This document shows, one piece after another, positions 24,001-36,000 of a DNA stretch of 64,000 nt (its first letter is position 1; every line of letters starts with the position of its first letter). A program made the position numbers. Origin of the DNA: Sedimentisphaerales bacterium (GTDB lineage Bacteria > Planctomycetota > Phycisphaerae > Sedimentisphaerales > SM23-30); assembly GCA_963663965.2 (NCBI GenBank), contig CAXXFK010000028.1:160001-224000 (forward strand), in the 5' to 3' direction.

Positions 24001-27000
24001 TCGCCGTAGGGTCGCCTGGCTTTGGTTCAGAGCGTTAAGAAGACGCAGTCAACGAAGCCGCATGACCTGGAGGCGAATGTACCAACTGATAGCAAGATGG
24101 CTTCCGCAGCCTAAAATTCTGCATCCGTACCCCCAGGCACGCTTACAAGCTGCTCGTTATGACCCGAGGTAGGAGCCGTATGCGGTAGTTCCGCTCGTAC
24201 GGATCTGTGCGGGGGGCTGGGAGTAATCCCAGTCCCTACCGCGACCACATTTTTTATTAGTCTTTCATCTGGTAGAGTCTTTCAATGGAGGAGGGAGGGA
24301 CAACTCCCTGCCCTGCCTCCCCGAGGGGAGGCAAAAATTTATCGGACGATCATGCCATGACCACCTCCTCTTTTTCAGCTTTTTTCTCCTTCTCCAACTC
24401 ATACAAATGATCCATATTCAAATAACGCCTCGTACCCCATTGGGTGCCGGCAATATGTCTCAGGCGGGCCGTGGCCAGCATCAGGGCCGAGTGACCATCC
24501 GGGAAATTGCCCACCACGCGCGTACGACGACGAATCTCACGCATGATCCGCTCCAGTGGATTATTGGTTCGCAACTGCCGCCAGTGCTTGTCGGGATATT
24601 GATAGTAAGTGAGTGTTTCGAGATAGCTTTCCTGGACCAATTCAGCGGCCTTGCCCAGTTTCATCTCCCGCAATTTGACAATCACTTGCTCGGCCTTCTG
24701 GATCGCCGCCTGGCGGTCTTCCTGGGCATGGATGGCCTTGAGCATGGCCGCGACCTCTCGCACCTTCTTGCGCGGCACATGACTGAACACGTTGCGATAC
24801 CAGTGGACCGTGCAGCGCTGCCAGTCGGCCTCCGGAAAAACCTCGGCCAGCGCGTCCACCAGACCCAGGCATTTGTCGGAAACAAACAGGCGAACACCCT
24901 GCAGGCCGCGGCGCTTTAAATCGCGTAAGAAACCGCCCCAACCGGCTTTATCCTCTTTGGCGCCCTCGCAGGAACCCAGCACTTCGCGATAGCCCTCCTG
25001 ATCGACGGCAATGGCCACCAGAATCGAAACATTCTTGACTTCGCCGCCCCAGCAACGTTTCAAAACGATGCCGTCCAGATAGACATAGGGATACGACCCT
25101 TCCAGTTTGCGGTTGCGCCATTGGTCGATCTGTTGATAGACTTTCTGATTCAGATTGCTGATGGTGCCCGCACTGACACGGGCGCCCCACAGGCTTTCGG
25201 CGATGTCTTCGATACGCCGGACCGAAACGCCGGCCAGATACATCTCGATCAGGGCCTCTTCTACCGAAGACTCCCGGCGTTTATAGCGCTCGATGATGGC
25301 GGTTTCAAAGGTCGTTTTTCGCAGCTTGGGCATCTTCAAATTCACTTCGCCGGTCGTCGTATGAAACTTACGCGGATAATAGCCCGCCCGGGTATCGGTG
25401 CGGGCCTGGGTATGTTCATAACGCTGGGCGTTGCAGAGCTGGTCCGCCTCGGCGTCCAGCAGGGCATTGAGCGTGTCTTCCACACTCTGGCGCACCATCT
25501 GGCCCAACTGATCCTTCATCTGGGATTGGTCGATTTTTAAAATTTGGTTCAAGTTCCTAACGTCACTGGTCGATTCTTCTGTTTGACTCATAGTCAGTCC
25601 TTTCATTTGGTGGTAGGTTTCGGTTTCAAAAACTTCATCGACCAGATGAAGGACTGTTTTTACGGTGTCCTATAATATGTGCGAAAAATATTTTACCTTA
25701 TCCGAATATCTGCTGCATGTCATGTCCATTCTCGGTGTTTGTCGGATTCCAGGCGTTGAGTGTGCGGGCATTGTCTCTAAGCCGGTAAATATCCTCACTG
25801 TTTAGCCCCTTGGGATCTGCTAACAGGATATCGATTTGAGAAATAAGTGAGGGGATCTGGAGGGTCAGTTTTTGGTATTGCGACCAGGCTTGAAGCTTCT
25901 CCTGCATAAAGGTGATCTGGTTGGGGCTCAGTCCAAAGGGATACTTCACTGTTATAGCTGTGGTCTTTTTAGTATTAAGATCTTCTGCCTTCACATTGAT
26001 AATCATGCTGGCATCGATATCGAATGTTACCTCGATCTGAGGAGTGCCTCTTGGGGCGGGGGGAATGTCATTGAGAGTCAGGGTGCCCAAATACAGGTTA
26101 TCTTTAACAAATTCGCTTTCTCCCTGGTAAACATTCACATCGACCTTGGTTTGATCCATCGTTGCAGTAGTGAAGGTTTCGGAATTAGAAGTTGGTACGG
26201 TTGTATTCTTTTGGATAATACGATTAAAAACCCCGCCTTGAGTTTCCACGCCGTAAGTTGCAGGGACGATATCCAAGATAAGGGAATGCTCTTGTCCCAA
26301 TAGAATTTCAGCCTGAATAATGGCCCCCTCAGCCACACAGGTTATAATGTCAACACCGGTAAAGGGTTTAACCGATAGTTGTTCAGCGATATTCCGACGG
26401 AGCATTGGCATGTTACTGGCACCACCGATAAGTAATAATGCGTTCAGCTCTTCATACTGATGCTTGGTGCTTTTGAGTGCCTTTTTCAGTATAGTCACGG
26501 CGCGATTCATGAGGGATTCAGCATTTTTTTCGAATGCATCCCTTTCGATGACGACATCCAGAGCCTGAATTTCGTTGTTAATGGTCACGAAACCGGGGAG
26601 ATAAATCCTGGACGAAGGGGCGGTGCTCAGTTCAATTTTTGCCCGTTCAGCAGCCTCTCTGATAATTAGTTTTTGAGTGTGATCCAGGTTGGGTAATGAA
26701 CCACAGGTCAACTTGAGCTGATCGTGAATCATATCGACGATAACCTGATCGAAGTCATCGCCTCCTAGGGATGAGTCTCCTTCGATACATATAACGTCGT
26801 AACAATCTTCATCGACACTGACAACCGAGACATCCAGAGTGCCTGCTCCCATGTCACATACAAGTATGTTCCCGCAGATATCTTTATCGTGTCCGTATGC
26901 CAGAGCGGCGGCAGTAGCTTCATTCATCAGCCGATGAACATTTAAGCCGGCAATCTTAGCAGCTTCAATCGTTGCGCGTCGCTGGCTTTCACTGAAGTGG

Positions 27001-33000: not shown

Positions 33001-36000
33001 TTGATCTGGACATAACGAATTCGGATTTCGCTTCTGGATTGAACCTGTCAGATCGCACTGCCCGGAGCTATCCAGGACTGGCGCCAATAAGGCTGGATTG
33101 CTGACCGCATCGCTGCCCTTCAGTCGAAGCGCTGAAATACCCGACTGTATGGCCGTTGGCGTCGATTTAATCATATCTGTTGTCAGAACTTCGGGAATAT
33201 CCGAACCGATATACAATGGATCCTTATCGCTGTTTTCCATATGAGGGATGATGAAAACAACGACAGGGGGCTCCAGGACTGGAGTGCTTTCGCGGATGTC
33301 ATTAATCATTTGGGTACGCGTTGAAATAAGCATAATGGTATCTCCTATATTAAATAGTTGTTTATCGACCACAAATAACCTCTGCATGGCCGATTACCAG
33401 TTTAGCCGGTTTGGCCTGCTTTATAATACTCTTGCAGGATCTGACCGGGGCAATGTCATCACAAAGTTGTACGCTGTCATTCATTGTTGCCGGGATTTTA
33501 TCGCCGATTACTAATGGAGTGGGTCCATTTTGAATGAAGTGGGCCTCGCTGACAAACGGTCTGATGCACTTAGGGTCACGATGTTGATTCCCATCCTGGT
33601 GCTCGATGATTTGATCAGTAAAGACCGGATTAGCATTGCCGATTTTGAGCTTGCAGTCCTGGCCTTGAAGGTCTGCCTCAAAGGTCTGGCTTATCGCCGC
33701 GACTGTATTGCCGATGAGCTGATAATGAATATCACTTGTCTGGATTTTGTTTGCCATAAGATTATCCTTTACTATCATCAGAGTTTTGTTTTTCCGGTTT
33801 CAAACCATTTTCAAGCATAACCACATTTTTAAATACACCAAGGGTTTGGTTGTCCTCGCTGTTCAACTGTGATTCAATCGTTCTGGCAATTCCTAGCGCA
33901 ATTTTCATAGCATTTTTAGCATTTTCATTTTCCAGTTTATCCGAAGAAAAACGAGCGTATATCATGGCTTTGGTGGCTTGAACCTCGAAGTGCTGATGGG
34001 GATTTGCAGTTAAAGCTTCGGCAATTCGTACACGCATCAGGCACTGGTCGAGTCCGAGTACACCGGACTTAACGCCGTCATCCAGCGGAAAAAGCATATC
34101 CCGAGACGTGACCGTTTCAACGGCATACCTGTCATCCATCGGACTCGGCAATGTCGCCGCATACAGGAGACGCCGGGTTTTCATGCCAACCACCCTGAGA
34201 CGATATTGATCTGCTTTCAATTGAAGCTGAACGATTACCAGTTCTTTATCCTTATAACCGGCTGCCTGGACAATGGATGCCGCATTCGCGACCGTCATCC
34301 AGCTGGATACCTCCACATTGGGTATGTCAAATCCCAGGAGTTTGGAAAACAGGCCGCTTGCGATAATCGGAGCATCCTTGGAGCGAGGCAGTTGTGAAAC
34401 ATAACATGTAAGCCAGTGTCTCACATCGTCATTAGTGGCCATAATGGCGATGATAAAATCCTCCTGGTCAAGAATTTTGGCTAGCTTGTCGGCATCAATA
34501 GATTCAGTCCATTCCGCTATAGTGTGATTAGTCCGAGTAGATTGCATGGCCGGATATGTCAGCGATGTTGAATCAGGCATTTCAGCCGGATTATTTACCT
34601 CTTTTGTTGATTTTTGAAAGGCCCAGGCAATTCCGGTAATCGCAAGCATGACCACAAAAATCGCCATGGGAATTACAAACGACGGCTCACAGTGGAAAAT
34701 ACTATCTTTGACTGCTTTGTAACGACGGTAAAGGGCGCTGGGGGCAGGGCGATAAGGTGCCAGCATTTCTGCTAGGCCCGGATGCTGTTCCGGTAGATTC
34801 TCAAACGGCTTACGGTACTTGCGCCGGCCTTTAAAGATGATTTTTGCGATCGTGTTTCGAACTTGCTGGTTGCCCGTAGCGGCCAGATGTGCAAACACAA
34901 CTGCGGCGGGCAGGTTGGCTCTCCCATCTATGTTAACCGGGTGAGTTTCCGGATTCCACCCGAGAGCCATCAGCAATTCGCTATAGAAATGGAGATCTGA
35001 TATGAGCAGGGCCGGATCAAGTAGATATCGGGCAACCGTCTGGCGGAGTTCCTCTAGGCACAGATCGGGATCATGGATTCGATCCAGTACTGGCTGAAGA
35101 TCCTGTTTGTTATCGATACGGTTTAACGATTTGCTGATAAGGAAGTCAATTGCCTTTTTTATCACTGGATGGCAGTTATCGACGGCATCCAGGAGAAGGT
35201 GATATTCTTCAGTTTCGAGGTGATTAACTTCGCGAAGCCGGGCGACAAGTTGTGTCACTTTAGGATTCATATTGTTTGATTCCTTTCTTTTTGTACGGGT
35301 TGTTTACTAAGGATCGTGTTCTCAAGCGGGAATTGCGTGGCTGGTATGATACAGCCTATCTCGTGTCATATTGGCACAGTTATCACAGTCGAACTTGCTC
35401 CTATGGATTTCTGTATTTTGGGGAGATTCCTTCGTAGCGTTGATCGTTTTAATTTGAGTGGTACCGTCTGGGGCAACAATGAATATTCGCTTCATGATTA
35501 TTCTCCTATGAATAGTGGTTGTGTTAAAATTCTCATCGATCGTCGTGAATAAAATATACAACAAAGAGAACTTGTACTTCGTCAAGTCTGGATATTACAA
35601 TGAAAGCATCCAGTCGTTTTGTCGGTTTAATGAGGTTCATTATCTTCATCTCTTTAGTATCAAATATTTGTCACTAATAGGTCTTTGCCCATAAGGGGTA
35701 CTCCTGAAGAAAAATATCAAAAAAAATTGGAAAATTTTATTATGCTGAAGCGTAACTATGAAATGGATTGGATTTGTAGGACAAAATCAAACGTATGTAA
35801 GATGTTAATAACTAAAGAGATAGAGATGTATTTTTTGTTTGGGGCCAAATGGCAATAAAAAGTTCTTTTGGGTTGAATATTGTTGCTTTTACCATGACGA
35901 ACAATTATGATTTTGCTATCGAATTTGTCGATTTGTCGATCAAAAACTTAGCTTTTAATAACCGCCTTCTTAAAATGTCACTATTCGTATTGTGATATGA

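What a model noticed while it worked through the whole genome (the two positions that open the first line are those of the whole stretch)
25698..35495. Ten-gene orphan operon with phage-tail-like parts that ends in an Hsp70
Ten co-directional, tightly packed genes (g03477 to g03468) have no Pfam, NCBIfam, Swiss-Prot or PHROG match over threshold except the last, a DnaK-type Hsp70; two searched members have only 3-4 relatives among 1.8 billion representative proteins. I read the cluster as a very divergent phage-tail-derived particle (two 131-132-aa tube-like proteins, a hub/baseplate-like 378-aa protein, a TssK-like 354-aa protein) that has recruited an Hsp70 in place of the usual AAA+ recycling ATPase. 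If so it is a new, rare branch of tail-like nanomachines and the first coupled to Hsp70.
Evidence so far: Call 67: g03477 57 aa, g03476 502, g03475 131, g03474 545, g03473 132, g03472 378, g03471 368, g03470 354, g03469 151, g03468 553 aa (HSP70 E 9e-129), all minus strand, gaps -4 to 95 nt; flanked by IS256 and a group II intron (182-185 kb), a 1916-aa TPR-CHAT gene and IS66/integrase genes (207-214 kb). Calls 70-71: Pfam at E<=1 gives T6SS_VasE (TssK) for g03470 (E 5.6e-4, 19.3 bits, cut 23.4) and two hits near E 0.1; PHROGs none for 8 of 8. Calls 73, 86: g03474 has 1 relative by word search (71%) and 4 by full HMMER scan (E 3e-73 to 3e-5); call 150: g03472 has 4 at E<=0.001 (3e-144, 5e-26, 1e-6, 4e-4). 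Call 145 (ESM Atlas, named clusters only): the rows shown of the 30 nearest clusters of g03 [...]
(Added by a program. Inside this text positions count along the whole contig: contig position 160,001 is position 1 of the stretch shown here. "Call 12" and the like, gene names such as g00115 and contig names such as C1 are that model's own, and its searches are not shown. The text may have been shortened before it was handed on; [...] marks where a part breaks off. The agent that wrote the report below was given it as the finding of a first reader that could run no searches.)

Follow-up and report, generated by a model that had tools for sequence, protein, structure and literature searches.

The report
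Rare eight-gene contractile injection module
This is a rare, very divergent eight-gene bacterial 'spring-loaded syringe' module whose sheath is one protein, as in phage tails, but which seems to carry the docking parts of a cell-anchored type VI secretion system; the neighbouring Hsp70 gene is a broken bystander, not part of the conserved module.

Summary
The operon is real, and its core is now identified. g03474 (545 aa) is a single-chain contractile sheath: model pLDDT 76.5; the 27 best of 48,161 solved chains are all sheaths (Z 21.1-12.3, next row 8.1). A second locus (L032) has the same eight genes, g03476-g03469, in the same order at 36-71% identity under purifying selection. It has no Hsp70 next to them. 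In the window an IS256 supplies the Hsp70's stop codon and lacks the target duplication seen at 5 of 5 other copies. The Hsp70-as-recycler idea is therefore not supported. g03470 is weakly but repeatably TssK-like (E 1.6e-5), g03472 weakly VgrG-like, and g03476 is the only membrane protein, with TssL-like topology. No TssE, TssF, TssM, ClpV or tape measure was recognised. Best reading: a minimal, probably membrane-anchored, T6SS-like contractile injection system with an unsplit sheath. Rival: a released eCIS. The sheath family has six clusters among 1.84 billion proteins, and no true match in two samples of 400 related genomes.

The parts
33762..35270 (-). g03476, 502 aa: single-pass membrane protein (about 195-aa N-terminal helical domain, TM helix about 197-218, C-terminal alpha/beta domain); candidate TssL-like anchor
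   Evidence: The only one of the eight core proteins with a strong hydrophobic helix, in both loci (KD19 2.41 and 3.01). hhalign of residues 1-220 to TssL: score 20.1 over 107 columns, E 0.039, above 12 of 12 shuffles (max 18.4). As a whole protein it was not better than its reversed control (E 0.079 against 0.091). Model unusable, pLDDT 35.7. 36% identical to L032.
33362..33757 (-). g03475, 131 aa, beta-rich: candidate PAAR-like spike tip (lead only), or a second tube/initiator protein
   Evidence: 58% identical in L032; H53, H59, C64, C99, C108 and C129 are invariant. The PAAR-like repeats are a recalled pattern judged by eye. No support from PF05488, hhalign or PDB sequences.
31696..33333 (-). 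g03474, 545 aa: single-chain contractile sheath with an all-helical insertion (residues 46-244)
   Evidence: AF2 on a 7-sequence alignment, pLDDT 76.5, pTM 0.72. All Foldseek rows shown are contractile tail or CIS entries, best E 1.3e-5. VIA wide: best Z 21.1, rmsd 5.4, 310 aligned, model range 18-527; TssC Z 15.2, rmsd 4.9, 284 aligned, range 216-527. Atlas features 0.94-0.96 to phage-sheath clusters, recognition 1903, below the 2300 mark.
31281..31679 (-). g03473, 132 aa: probable tube (Hcp/gp19-like), by position and size
   Evidence: Directly after the sheath in both loci, 64% identical. hhalign to Hcp covers only 18 columns, E 0.09, and a reversed control scored as well. Inference.
30094..31272 (-). 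g03472, 392 aa: short VgrG-like hub/spike
   Evidence: hhalign to VgrG E 0.009 (reversed control 0.44); score 29.0 against shuffle max 21.3, n=12, though the register is doubtful. PF05954 finds nothing in the genome. 61% identical in L032.
28991..30097 (-). g03471, 368 aa: unassigned; candidate baseplate wedge protein, by position
   Evidence: 59% identical in L032. No signal against TssF or TssG profiles, Pfam or PDB sequences. Inference.
27930..28994 (-). g03470, 354 aa: TssK-like
   Evidence: TIGR03353 E 1.6e-5; the only TssK match in the whole genome, E 5e-5. PF05936 E 5.6e-4, 0.02 and 3.3e-4 for three homologues. hhalign to TssK score 30.5 against shuffle max 19.9, n=12. All matches are below the cut-off and cover the N-terminal part only (residues 87-179).
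27455..27910 (-). g03469, 151 aa: candidate permuted papain-like (His...Cys) peptidase or amidase; possible cargo
   Evidence: 66% identical in L032; H32 and C110 are invariant. The motif reading is recalled. No Pfam or PDB sequence hit; no hydrophobic leader.
25698..27359 (-). g03468, 553 aa: divergent Hsp70 whose 3' end is cut by an IS256; adjacent, not part of the conserved module
   Evidence: PF00012 E 9.4e-129; 37.6% identical to the genome's 638-aa DnaK. Its last codon and stop lie in the IS terminus. Absent from the matching slot of L032.
22289..25703 (-). IS256-family element (transposase 24350-25606) carrying a group II intron (22302-24256) in one terminal repeat; no target-site duplication
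   Evidence: Near-identical copies on C2, C6, C13, C21 and C25; 5 of 5 have a 7-bp duplication, the window copy has none.
35322..35495 (-). g03477, 57 aa: small ORF upstream, not conserved
   Evidence: Has a ribosome-binding-site-like sequence; no homologue in L032 (best tblastn E 0.84).

Best explanation
The eight genes g03476-g03469 encode a minimal, highly divergent contractile injection system that most likely works like a cell-anchored type VI secretion system. SHOWN: g03474 has the contractile-sheath fold in one chain; the eight genes travel as a block under purifying selection; g03476 is the only membrane protein. WEAKLY SHOWN: g03470 is TssK-like and g03472 is VgrG-like. INFERRED: a g03472 trimer (perhaps tipped by g03475) and g03471 form the baseplate. 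g03470 docks it on the cytoplasmic domain of g03476 in the inner membrane. g03473 rings and the g03474 sheath grow from there without a tape measure. Contraction drives the spike, possibly carrying the g03469 peptidase, out of the cell. Spent sheaths are left, or are recycled by an unlinked housekeeping ClpB/ClpC, not by the adjacent Hsp70.
For: Sheath fold. TssC and IglB align with 284 and 283 residues over model residues 216-527, which includes part of the long helix 197-244; the insertion 46-244 is all helix. TssK signal in three homologues and as the only genomic match. VgrG signal. Conserved TM helix and weak TssL signal in g03476. Both loci hold the same eight genes and no long tape-measure-sized ORF. 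In T6SS, TssK recruits the baseplate to the cytoplasmic domain of TssL, and Francisella uses ClpB in place of ClpV (PMC10433429, passages). Clp ATPases lie on C22 and C32.
Against: Single-chain eCIS, pyocin and phage sheaths score higher (Z 18-21, 8-13% identity) than TssC/IglB (Z 15, 8-9%). Profile comparison with TssB and TssC shows nothing. [quoted passage not shown] An eCIS can carry a TssK-like part: Alg19 (PMC8894135, passage). The TssL signal is marginal. Only two loci were seen.
Confidence: 0.52

Rival explanations
1. A released or free cytoplasmic contractile particle (eCIS/tailocin-like). g03470 acts as a short tail fibre or receptor-binding trimer, and g03476 is an accessory tether, release or immunity protein.
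For: The single-chain sheath matches PVC, AFP, Streptomyces CIS, pyocin and myophage sheaths best. Atlas neighbours are phage sheath clusters. A TssK-like structure occurs in AlgoCIS (PMC8894135).
Against: No tape-measure-sized ORF in either locus. No gp25 match in the genome. No recognisable cap, AAA ATPase or lysis gene among the eight. A conserved membrane protein heads the operon.
Confidence: 0.25
2. The eight genes are only a sub-module. The missing baseplate, cap and membrane-channel genes lie elsewhere under sequences too divergent to recognise, or were lost, so the window's copy may not build a working machine.
For: Eight genes are few for any known CIS (recalled). The sheath itself escapes the VipA and VipB profiles, so family searches are blind at this distance. 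An IS without target duplication marks a deletion or misjoin downstream. The genome is 94.6% complete.
Against: Both loci have the same gene boundaries, with unrelated genes on each side in L032. All eight genes are intact and under purifying selection.
Confidence: 0.15
3. One reading: the Hsp70 is a dedicated partner that disassembles or chaperones the sheath in place of ClpV.
For: The gene is co-directional and 95 nt downstream; its GC (0.47) and GC3 (0.49) match the operon; no terminator-like site in the spacer. It is a divergent extra Hsp70, not the housekeeping DnaK.
Against: It is absent from the same slot in L032, and DNA similarity ends at the g03469 stop. Its 3' end is replaced by an IS256. 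A promoter-like site lies in the spacer, one of 25 such sites against 16 expected by chance, so weak. The genome has two other short extra Hsp70s elsewhere. Only one comparison locus, with 1.6 kb of DNA beyond g03469.
Confidence: 0.07

Closest known systems
Canonical T6SS (subtype i; TssA-M, VgrG, PAAR, ClpV)
   Same: Contractile sheath core (TssC 5n8n_B: Z 15.2, rmsd 4.9, 284 aligned); TssK-like gene; VgrG-like fused hub/spike; a single-pass membrane protein with TssL-like topology; no tape measure.
   Different: The sheath is one chain, not TssB plus TssC. No TssM-sized gene; no recognised TssE, TssF, TssG, TssJ, TssA or ClpV; eight genes; tssK and tssL candidates not adjacent.
eCIS (PVC, AFP, AlgoCIS, Streptomyces CIS) and R-type pyocins
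   Same: Single-chain sheath, best structural scores (Z 18-21); VgrG-like spike; AlgoCIS has a TssK-like Alg19.
   Different: A 200-residue all-helical sheath insertion; no tape measure, gp25, cap or AAA ATPase recognised; a conserved membrane protein leads the operon.
T6SS-iv of Amoebophilus and T6SS-ii of Francisella
   Same: T6SS-iv is membrane-attached without TssJLM or ClpV, and T6SS-ii uses ClpB (PMC10433429, passages). IglB matches the sheath at Z 15.0, rmsd 4.9, 283 aligned.
   Different: T6SS-iv is an eCIS-clade system (closest to AlgoCIS and MACs, PMC8894135 passage) and lacks TssL, whereas here a TssL-like topology and a TssK-like gene are present. T6SS-ii has a split IglA/IglB sheath (recalled).
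Myophage tails
   Same: Sheath fold (BFVD best E 1.1e-7; cyanophage A-1(L) Z 21.1).
   Different: No PHROG match; no capsid, terminase or tape-measure gene in the block; 5 of 5 viral-contig scans found no relative.

Membership tests
Contractile injection systems (broad class) | Contractile sheath protein | tested here: met
Contractile injection systems (broad class) | Tube (Hcp/gp19 fold) | tested here: inconclusive
   g03473 by position and size; hhalign not above the reversed control; no model made
Contractile injection systems (broad class) | gp27/gp5 hub-spike (VgrG) | tested here: inconclusive
   g03472 E 0.005-0.009, above all controls, register doubtful; PF05954 no match
T6SS subtype i | Sheath split into TssB and TssC | tested here: not met
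   One chain spans the whole sheath fold, model residues 18-527; all seven family members aligned are 525-558 aa; no VipA or VipB match in the genome
T6SS subtype i | TssK | tested here: inconclusive
   Repeatable but sub-threshold match, N-terminal part only
T6SS subtype i | TssL | tested here: inconclusive
   Topology fits; profile signal marginal; model failed
T6SS subtype i | TssM in the cluster | tested here: not met
   No gene of that size with TM helices in either block; PF14331 no match in the genome
T6SS subtype i | TssE, TssF, TssG wedge | tested here: inconclusive
   PF04965 and PF05947 no match in the genome; g03471 gives no signal; searches are blind at this divergence
T6SS subtype i | ClpV in the cluster | tested here: not met
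   No Clp gene in either block; the genome's Clp ATPases are on other contigs
T6SS subtype i | TssA and TssJ | not tested
   Only the Pfam and NCBIfam scans of the operon proteins (no hit) and one g03476-TssA comparison (E 0.064); no genome-wide search
eCIS (PVC/AFP/AlgoCIS type) | Single-chain sheath | tested here: met
eCIS (PVC/AFP/AlgoCIS type) | Tape measure protein in the cluster (recalled feature) | tested here: inconclusive
   No long unassigned ORF among the eight genes; DNA downstream is rearranged in the window and short in L032
eCIS (PVC/AFP/AlgoCIS type) | Cap (Pvc16/Afp16/Alg16), gp6/gp7 wedge, AAA ATPase | not tested
   No genome-wide search for these families; none hit the operon proteins in Pfam
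Any CIS | Particles assemble, contract and deliver cargo | not testable with these tools
   Needs microscopy or biochemistry

The most novel reading that the evidence does not exclude
A fifth architecture of cell-anchored contractile secretion system: eight genes, an unsplit phage/eCIS-type sheath that already bears a T6SS-like helical outer domain, docked by TssK on a lone TssL-like membrane protein, with no TssM, TssJ, TssA or ClpV. It would be a living intermediate between phage tails/eCIS and the T6SS, from before the sheath split into TssB and TssC, and the smallest such machine. The five distant sheath clusters (16-33% identity) would mark an old, thinly spread lineage.
Probability: 0.3. 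Interest if true: 0.86.

Novelty: new variant of a known kind. Interest (0 to 1): 0.66.

Why it matters
Known cell-anchored T6SS have a split sheath and a TssJLM channel; known single-chain sheaths belong to phages, tailocins, eCIS and T6SS-iv. A conserved block joining an unsplit sheath to TssK-like and TssL-like genes would show how a phage tail became a secretion system, and whether docking came before the TssB/TssC split and ClpV recycling. It also defines a sheath family that Pfam, NCBIfam and PHROGs miss, so current surveys undercount these machines. Eight genes in 7.8 kb is small enough to reconstitute, which makes the minimum parts list of a contractile injector testable.

Tried and rejected
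Sheath as a TssB-TssC fusion by sequence: suggested by eye, but hhalign against 24 TssB and 28 TssC sequences gave no signal; only the structural overlap with TssC remains. No T6SS chain appeared among the Foldseek rows shown; this does not exclude kinship. hmmsearch of the eight profiles against 511 and 1587 ORFs from T6SS regions of relatives: best E 0.03, nothing coherent. PDB sequence searches for g03474, g03475, g03473, g03472, g03470, g03469, g03476 and g03471: best E 0.028, all unrelated. g03476 model: pLDDT 35.7, no Foldseek match at E<=0.001, best VIA Z 5.4; Atlas best 0.84; uninformative. Complex of three g03472 C-terminal parts with g03475: verdict 'no answer', score 0.00. More loci: scans with A3 found nothing, but one search missed the contig later found, so these two blanks are uninformative. 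The genome scan with P0006/P0007 patterns, five viral scans and a plasmid tblastn found none. A word search with the 7-sequence profile returned only the two close members. Genome samples: 0 of 60 relatives, 0 of 400 in the order, 1 of 400 in the phylum; I dropped that one hit (G155, E 3.4e-4, about 40 residues) because it lies antisense to a 524-aa ORF. Expression: no RNA holder listed. The empty-site sequence seen in contigs of runs X1 and X2 after position 22288 is not in the assembly, and no second piece of the Hsp70 lid was found. Earlier findings of this scan: three look-ups, nothing. Eight literature searches listed no paper describing this architecture or an Hsp70-coupled CIS; four returned no paper at all, and the library lacks most subscription journals.
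Full report
Observation. The ten minus-strand ORFs lie at 25698-35495 as described. Only the Hsp70 passes a curated cut-off. g03470 has sub-threshold TssK matches in Pfam (E 5.6e-4) and NCBIfam (E 1.6e-5). None of the eight core genes has a paralogue in the genome at tblastn E below 0.08. The genome (7.24 Mb, 94.6% complete, 5.4% contamination) has no match to VipA, VipB, gp25/TssE, Phage_GPD, TssF or TssM, although 66 of 301 genomes sampled from its phylum carry a canonical VipB. 102 hits of a dockerin-like motif (motif and its taxonomic link recalled) suggest a Sedimentisphaerales-like planctomycete; this is an inference.

The sheath. A two-sequence profile of g03474 found six clusters, itself included, among 1,835,955,588 representatives (E 2.6e-81 to 7.4e-4 for the other five), all 525-558 aa long and 16-33% identical to it. 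None carries a name or a Pfam hit. Folding on the 7-sequence alignment gave pLDDT 76.5 and pTM 0.72. Every Foldseek row shown was a contractile tail or CIS entry. Against 48,161 representative chains, ranks 1-27 were all sheaths (Z 21.1 to 12.3) and rank 28 was unrelated at Z 8.1. BFVD agreed (best E 1.1e-7). Single-chain sheaths align over model residues 18-527, so the gene holds the whole protomer. TssC and IglB align over 216-527 with 284 and 283 residues (Z 15.2 and 15.0, rmsd 4.9), taking in part of the long helix 197-244. The insertion at 46-244 is all helix. The T6SS outer layer differs from that of phage sheaths (PMC10433429, passage), and I recall it as helical. Because TssC is only part of a protomer, its lower Z does not decide ancestry. 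Identity in the structural alignments is slightly higher for eCIS and pyocin sheaths (10-13%) than for TssC/IglB (8-9%), and profile comparison with TssB and TssC gave nothing. The sheath is single-chain for certain; whether it is a pre-split or re-fused T6SS sheath, or an eCIS sheath with its own helical domain, is open.

The conserved unit is eight genes. A metagenome scan found one more locus, L032. It holds g03476 to g03469 in the same order at 36, 58, 71, 64, 61, 59, 52 and 66% identity. dN/dS is 0.06-0.18 for six genes and dS is saturated for two. g03477 is not there. After g03469 comes a YfbK_C gene (E 7e-38), and DNA similarity (66.8% over 6.3 kb) ends at the g03469 stop. TssK-like relatives P0010 and P0011 (52-54%) point to at least one more close locus that I could not fetch. 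No relative was found in 60 close relatives, 400 genomes of the order, or 400 of the phylum, one antisense chance hit dropped. The distribution is sparse and patchy. The flanking IS elements and integrase fit horizontal arrival.

The Hsp70. It is a divergent extra copy, 37.6% identical to the 638-aa housekeeping DnaK. A 3.4-kb IS256 element with a group II intron in one end spans 22289-25703. The Hsp70's last codon and stop are the first bases of that element. Five of five other copies have a 7-bp target duplication; this one has none, and its far flank is the 3' remnant of an unrelated gene. A contig of run X1 covers 25674-30261, with 30 letters on the IS side (one short of the tool's bar for a bridge), and that run may be the source sample. 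So the gene's native end, and whatever followed it, was deleted or misjoined. In favour of coupling there remain only adjacency (95 nt), matching GC content and the lack of a terminator. With one comparison locus that has 1.6 kb beyond the block, coupling is unlikely but not excluded.

The other parts. g03470 matches TssK weakly in three homologues and is the only TssK match in the genome; profile to profile it scores 30.5 against a shuffle maximum of 19.9 (n=12). The match covers the N-terminal shoulder region only. g03472 scores 29.0 against VgrG (shuffle maximum 21.3; reversed control E 0.44 against 0.009); the register is doubtful, and the hub, OB-fold and short beta-helix layout is my reading by eye. 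g03476 is the only protein with a strong TM helix, at about 197-218 in both loci, which is TssL's topology. Its first 220 residues align to TssL over 107 columns up to the TM helix, above 12 of 12 shuffles but only at E 0.039, and the whole protein did no better than its reversed control. The reference profiles were shallow (4 TssL, 5 TssK, 6 VgrG sequences). g03473 is a tube by position and size only. g03475 keeps two His and four Cys and looks PAAR-like by eye, with no tool support. g03471 is unassigned. g03469 keeps a His and a Cys in the order of permuted papain-like enzymes (family pattern recalled).

Mechanism. Shown: a contractile sheath inside a conserved eight-gene block with one membrane protein. 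Inferred: spike and wedge form a baseplate, the TssK-like trimer docks it on the membrane protein as TssK does on TssL (PMC10433429, passage), tube and sheath polymerise without a tape measure, and contraction ejects the spike, perhaps with the peptidase as cargo. Recycling could fall to an unlinked ClpB/ClpC, as in Francisella (same review). The weak point is the envelope: no TssM or TssJ, so either the C-terminal domain of g03476 forms the passage or the particle is released. I put the anchored reading at 0.52, a released eCIS at 0.25 (AlgoCIS has a TssK-like Alg19; PMC8894135, passage), an incomplete sub-module at 0.15 and Hsp70 coupling at 0.07. That the block is a contractile injection module of some kind is about 0.9.

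Comparison and novelty. It is not a member of T6SS subtype i: the split sheath, TssM and ClpV tests fail. It works like a CIS and shares the single-chain sheath of eCIS, without their recognisable tape measure, gp25 or cap. The review names four T6SS subtypes, none with this gene set as far as the passages I read go. Of PMC10433429 and PMC8894135 I saw keyword passages only and no supplements; for the other papers I saw search listings only. Eight searches found no description of this architecture, within a library that lacks most subscription journals; eCIS database supplements that I did not see could list a distant member. Verdict: a new variant of a known kind, interest 0.66. The sheath assignment is firm; the anchored architecture that would make it a new subtype rests on weak signals and two loci.

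Noticed in passing
window 22289-25703; other copies on C2, C6, C13, C21, C25: A group II intron (RT at 22583-24172) sits in a terminal repeat of the IS256 element: one end in C6, C25 and the window, the other end in C2 and C21, absent in C13. This looks like an intron homing to IS256 ends. A contig joint skipping it was seen in runs X1 and X2.
   Followed up: partly
window 22081-22288 (-): 3' remnant of a gene ending in a dockerin-like motif, cut at the IS end; runs X1 and X2 hold an IS-free continuation that is not in the assembly.
   Followed up: partly
window 36097-41847 (+): 1916-aa TPR-CHAT protease gene with an N-terminal hydrophobic leader, divergent from the operon, GC 0.40 against 0.47-0.51; not upstream of the block in L032.
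   Followed up: partly
window 15590-21213 (+): Low-GC (0.31-0.37) run of four radical SAM genes: MiaB/RimO-like, SPASM peptide maturase (FibroRumin-like, E 5e-64, below cut-off), B12-binding and SPASM; a possible RiPP cluster, precursor not sought.
   Followed up: no
window 43188-59100: Island-like region: HTH/sigma-like gene, trypsin-like protease (44621-46381), two PrimPol-like genes (51810-53078; 55014-57470 with a helicase), integrase (53369-54670), AbiEi-like gene (58492-59100) and a repeated 1.4-kb element in two copies.
   Followed up: no
window 6800-12300: Strong G skew (0.26-0.40) with high GC and many overlapping ORFs on both strands; possibly repetitive or non-coding.
   Followed up: no
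L032 9494-10597 (+): YfbK_C gene that seems to lack most of the vWA core, in the slot that the Hsp70 holds in the window.
   Followed up: no
G000 C36:64298-65824 and C21:122965-124401: Two further short Hsp70 paralogues (515 and 514 aa) without the usual lid.
   Followed up: no
L034-L053 (phylum relatives): Many genomes have second, divergent VipB-like ORFs in open frames of 570-720 aa (E 1e-15 to 1e-60), often apart from a full T6SS cluster; they did not match this sheath family.
   Followed up: partly
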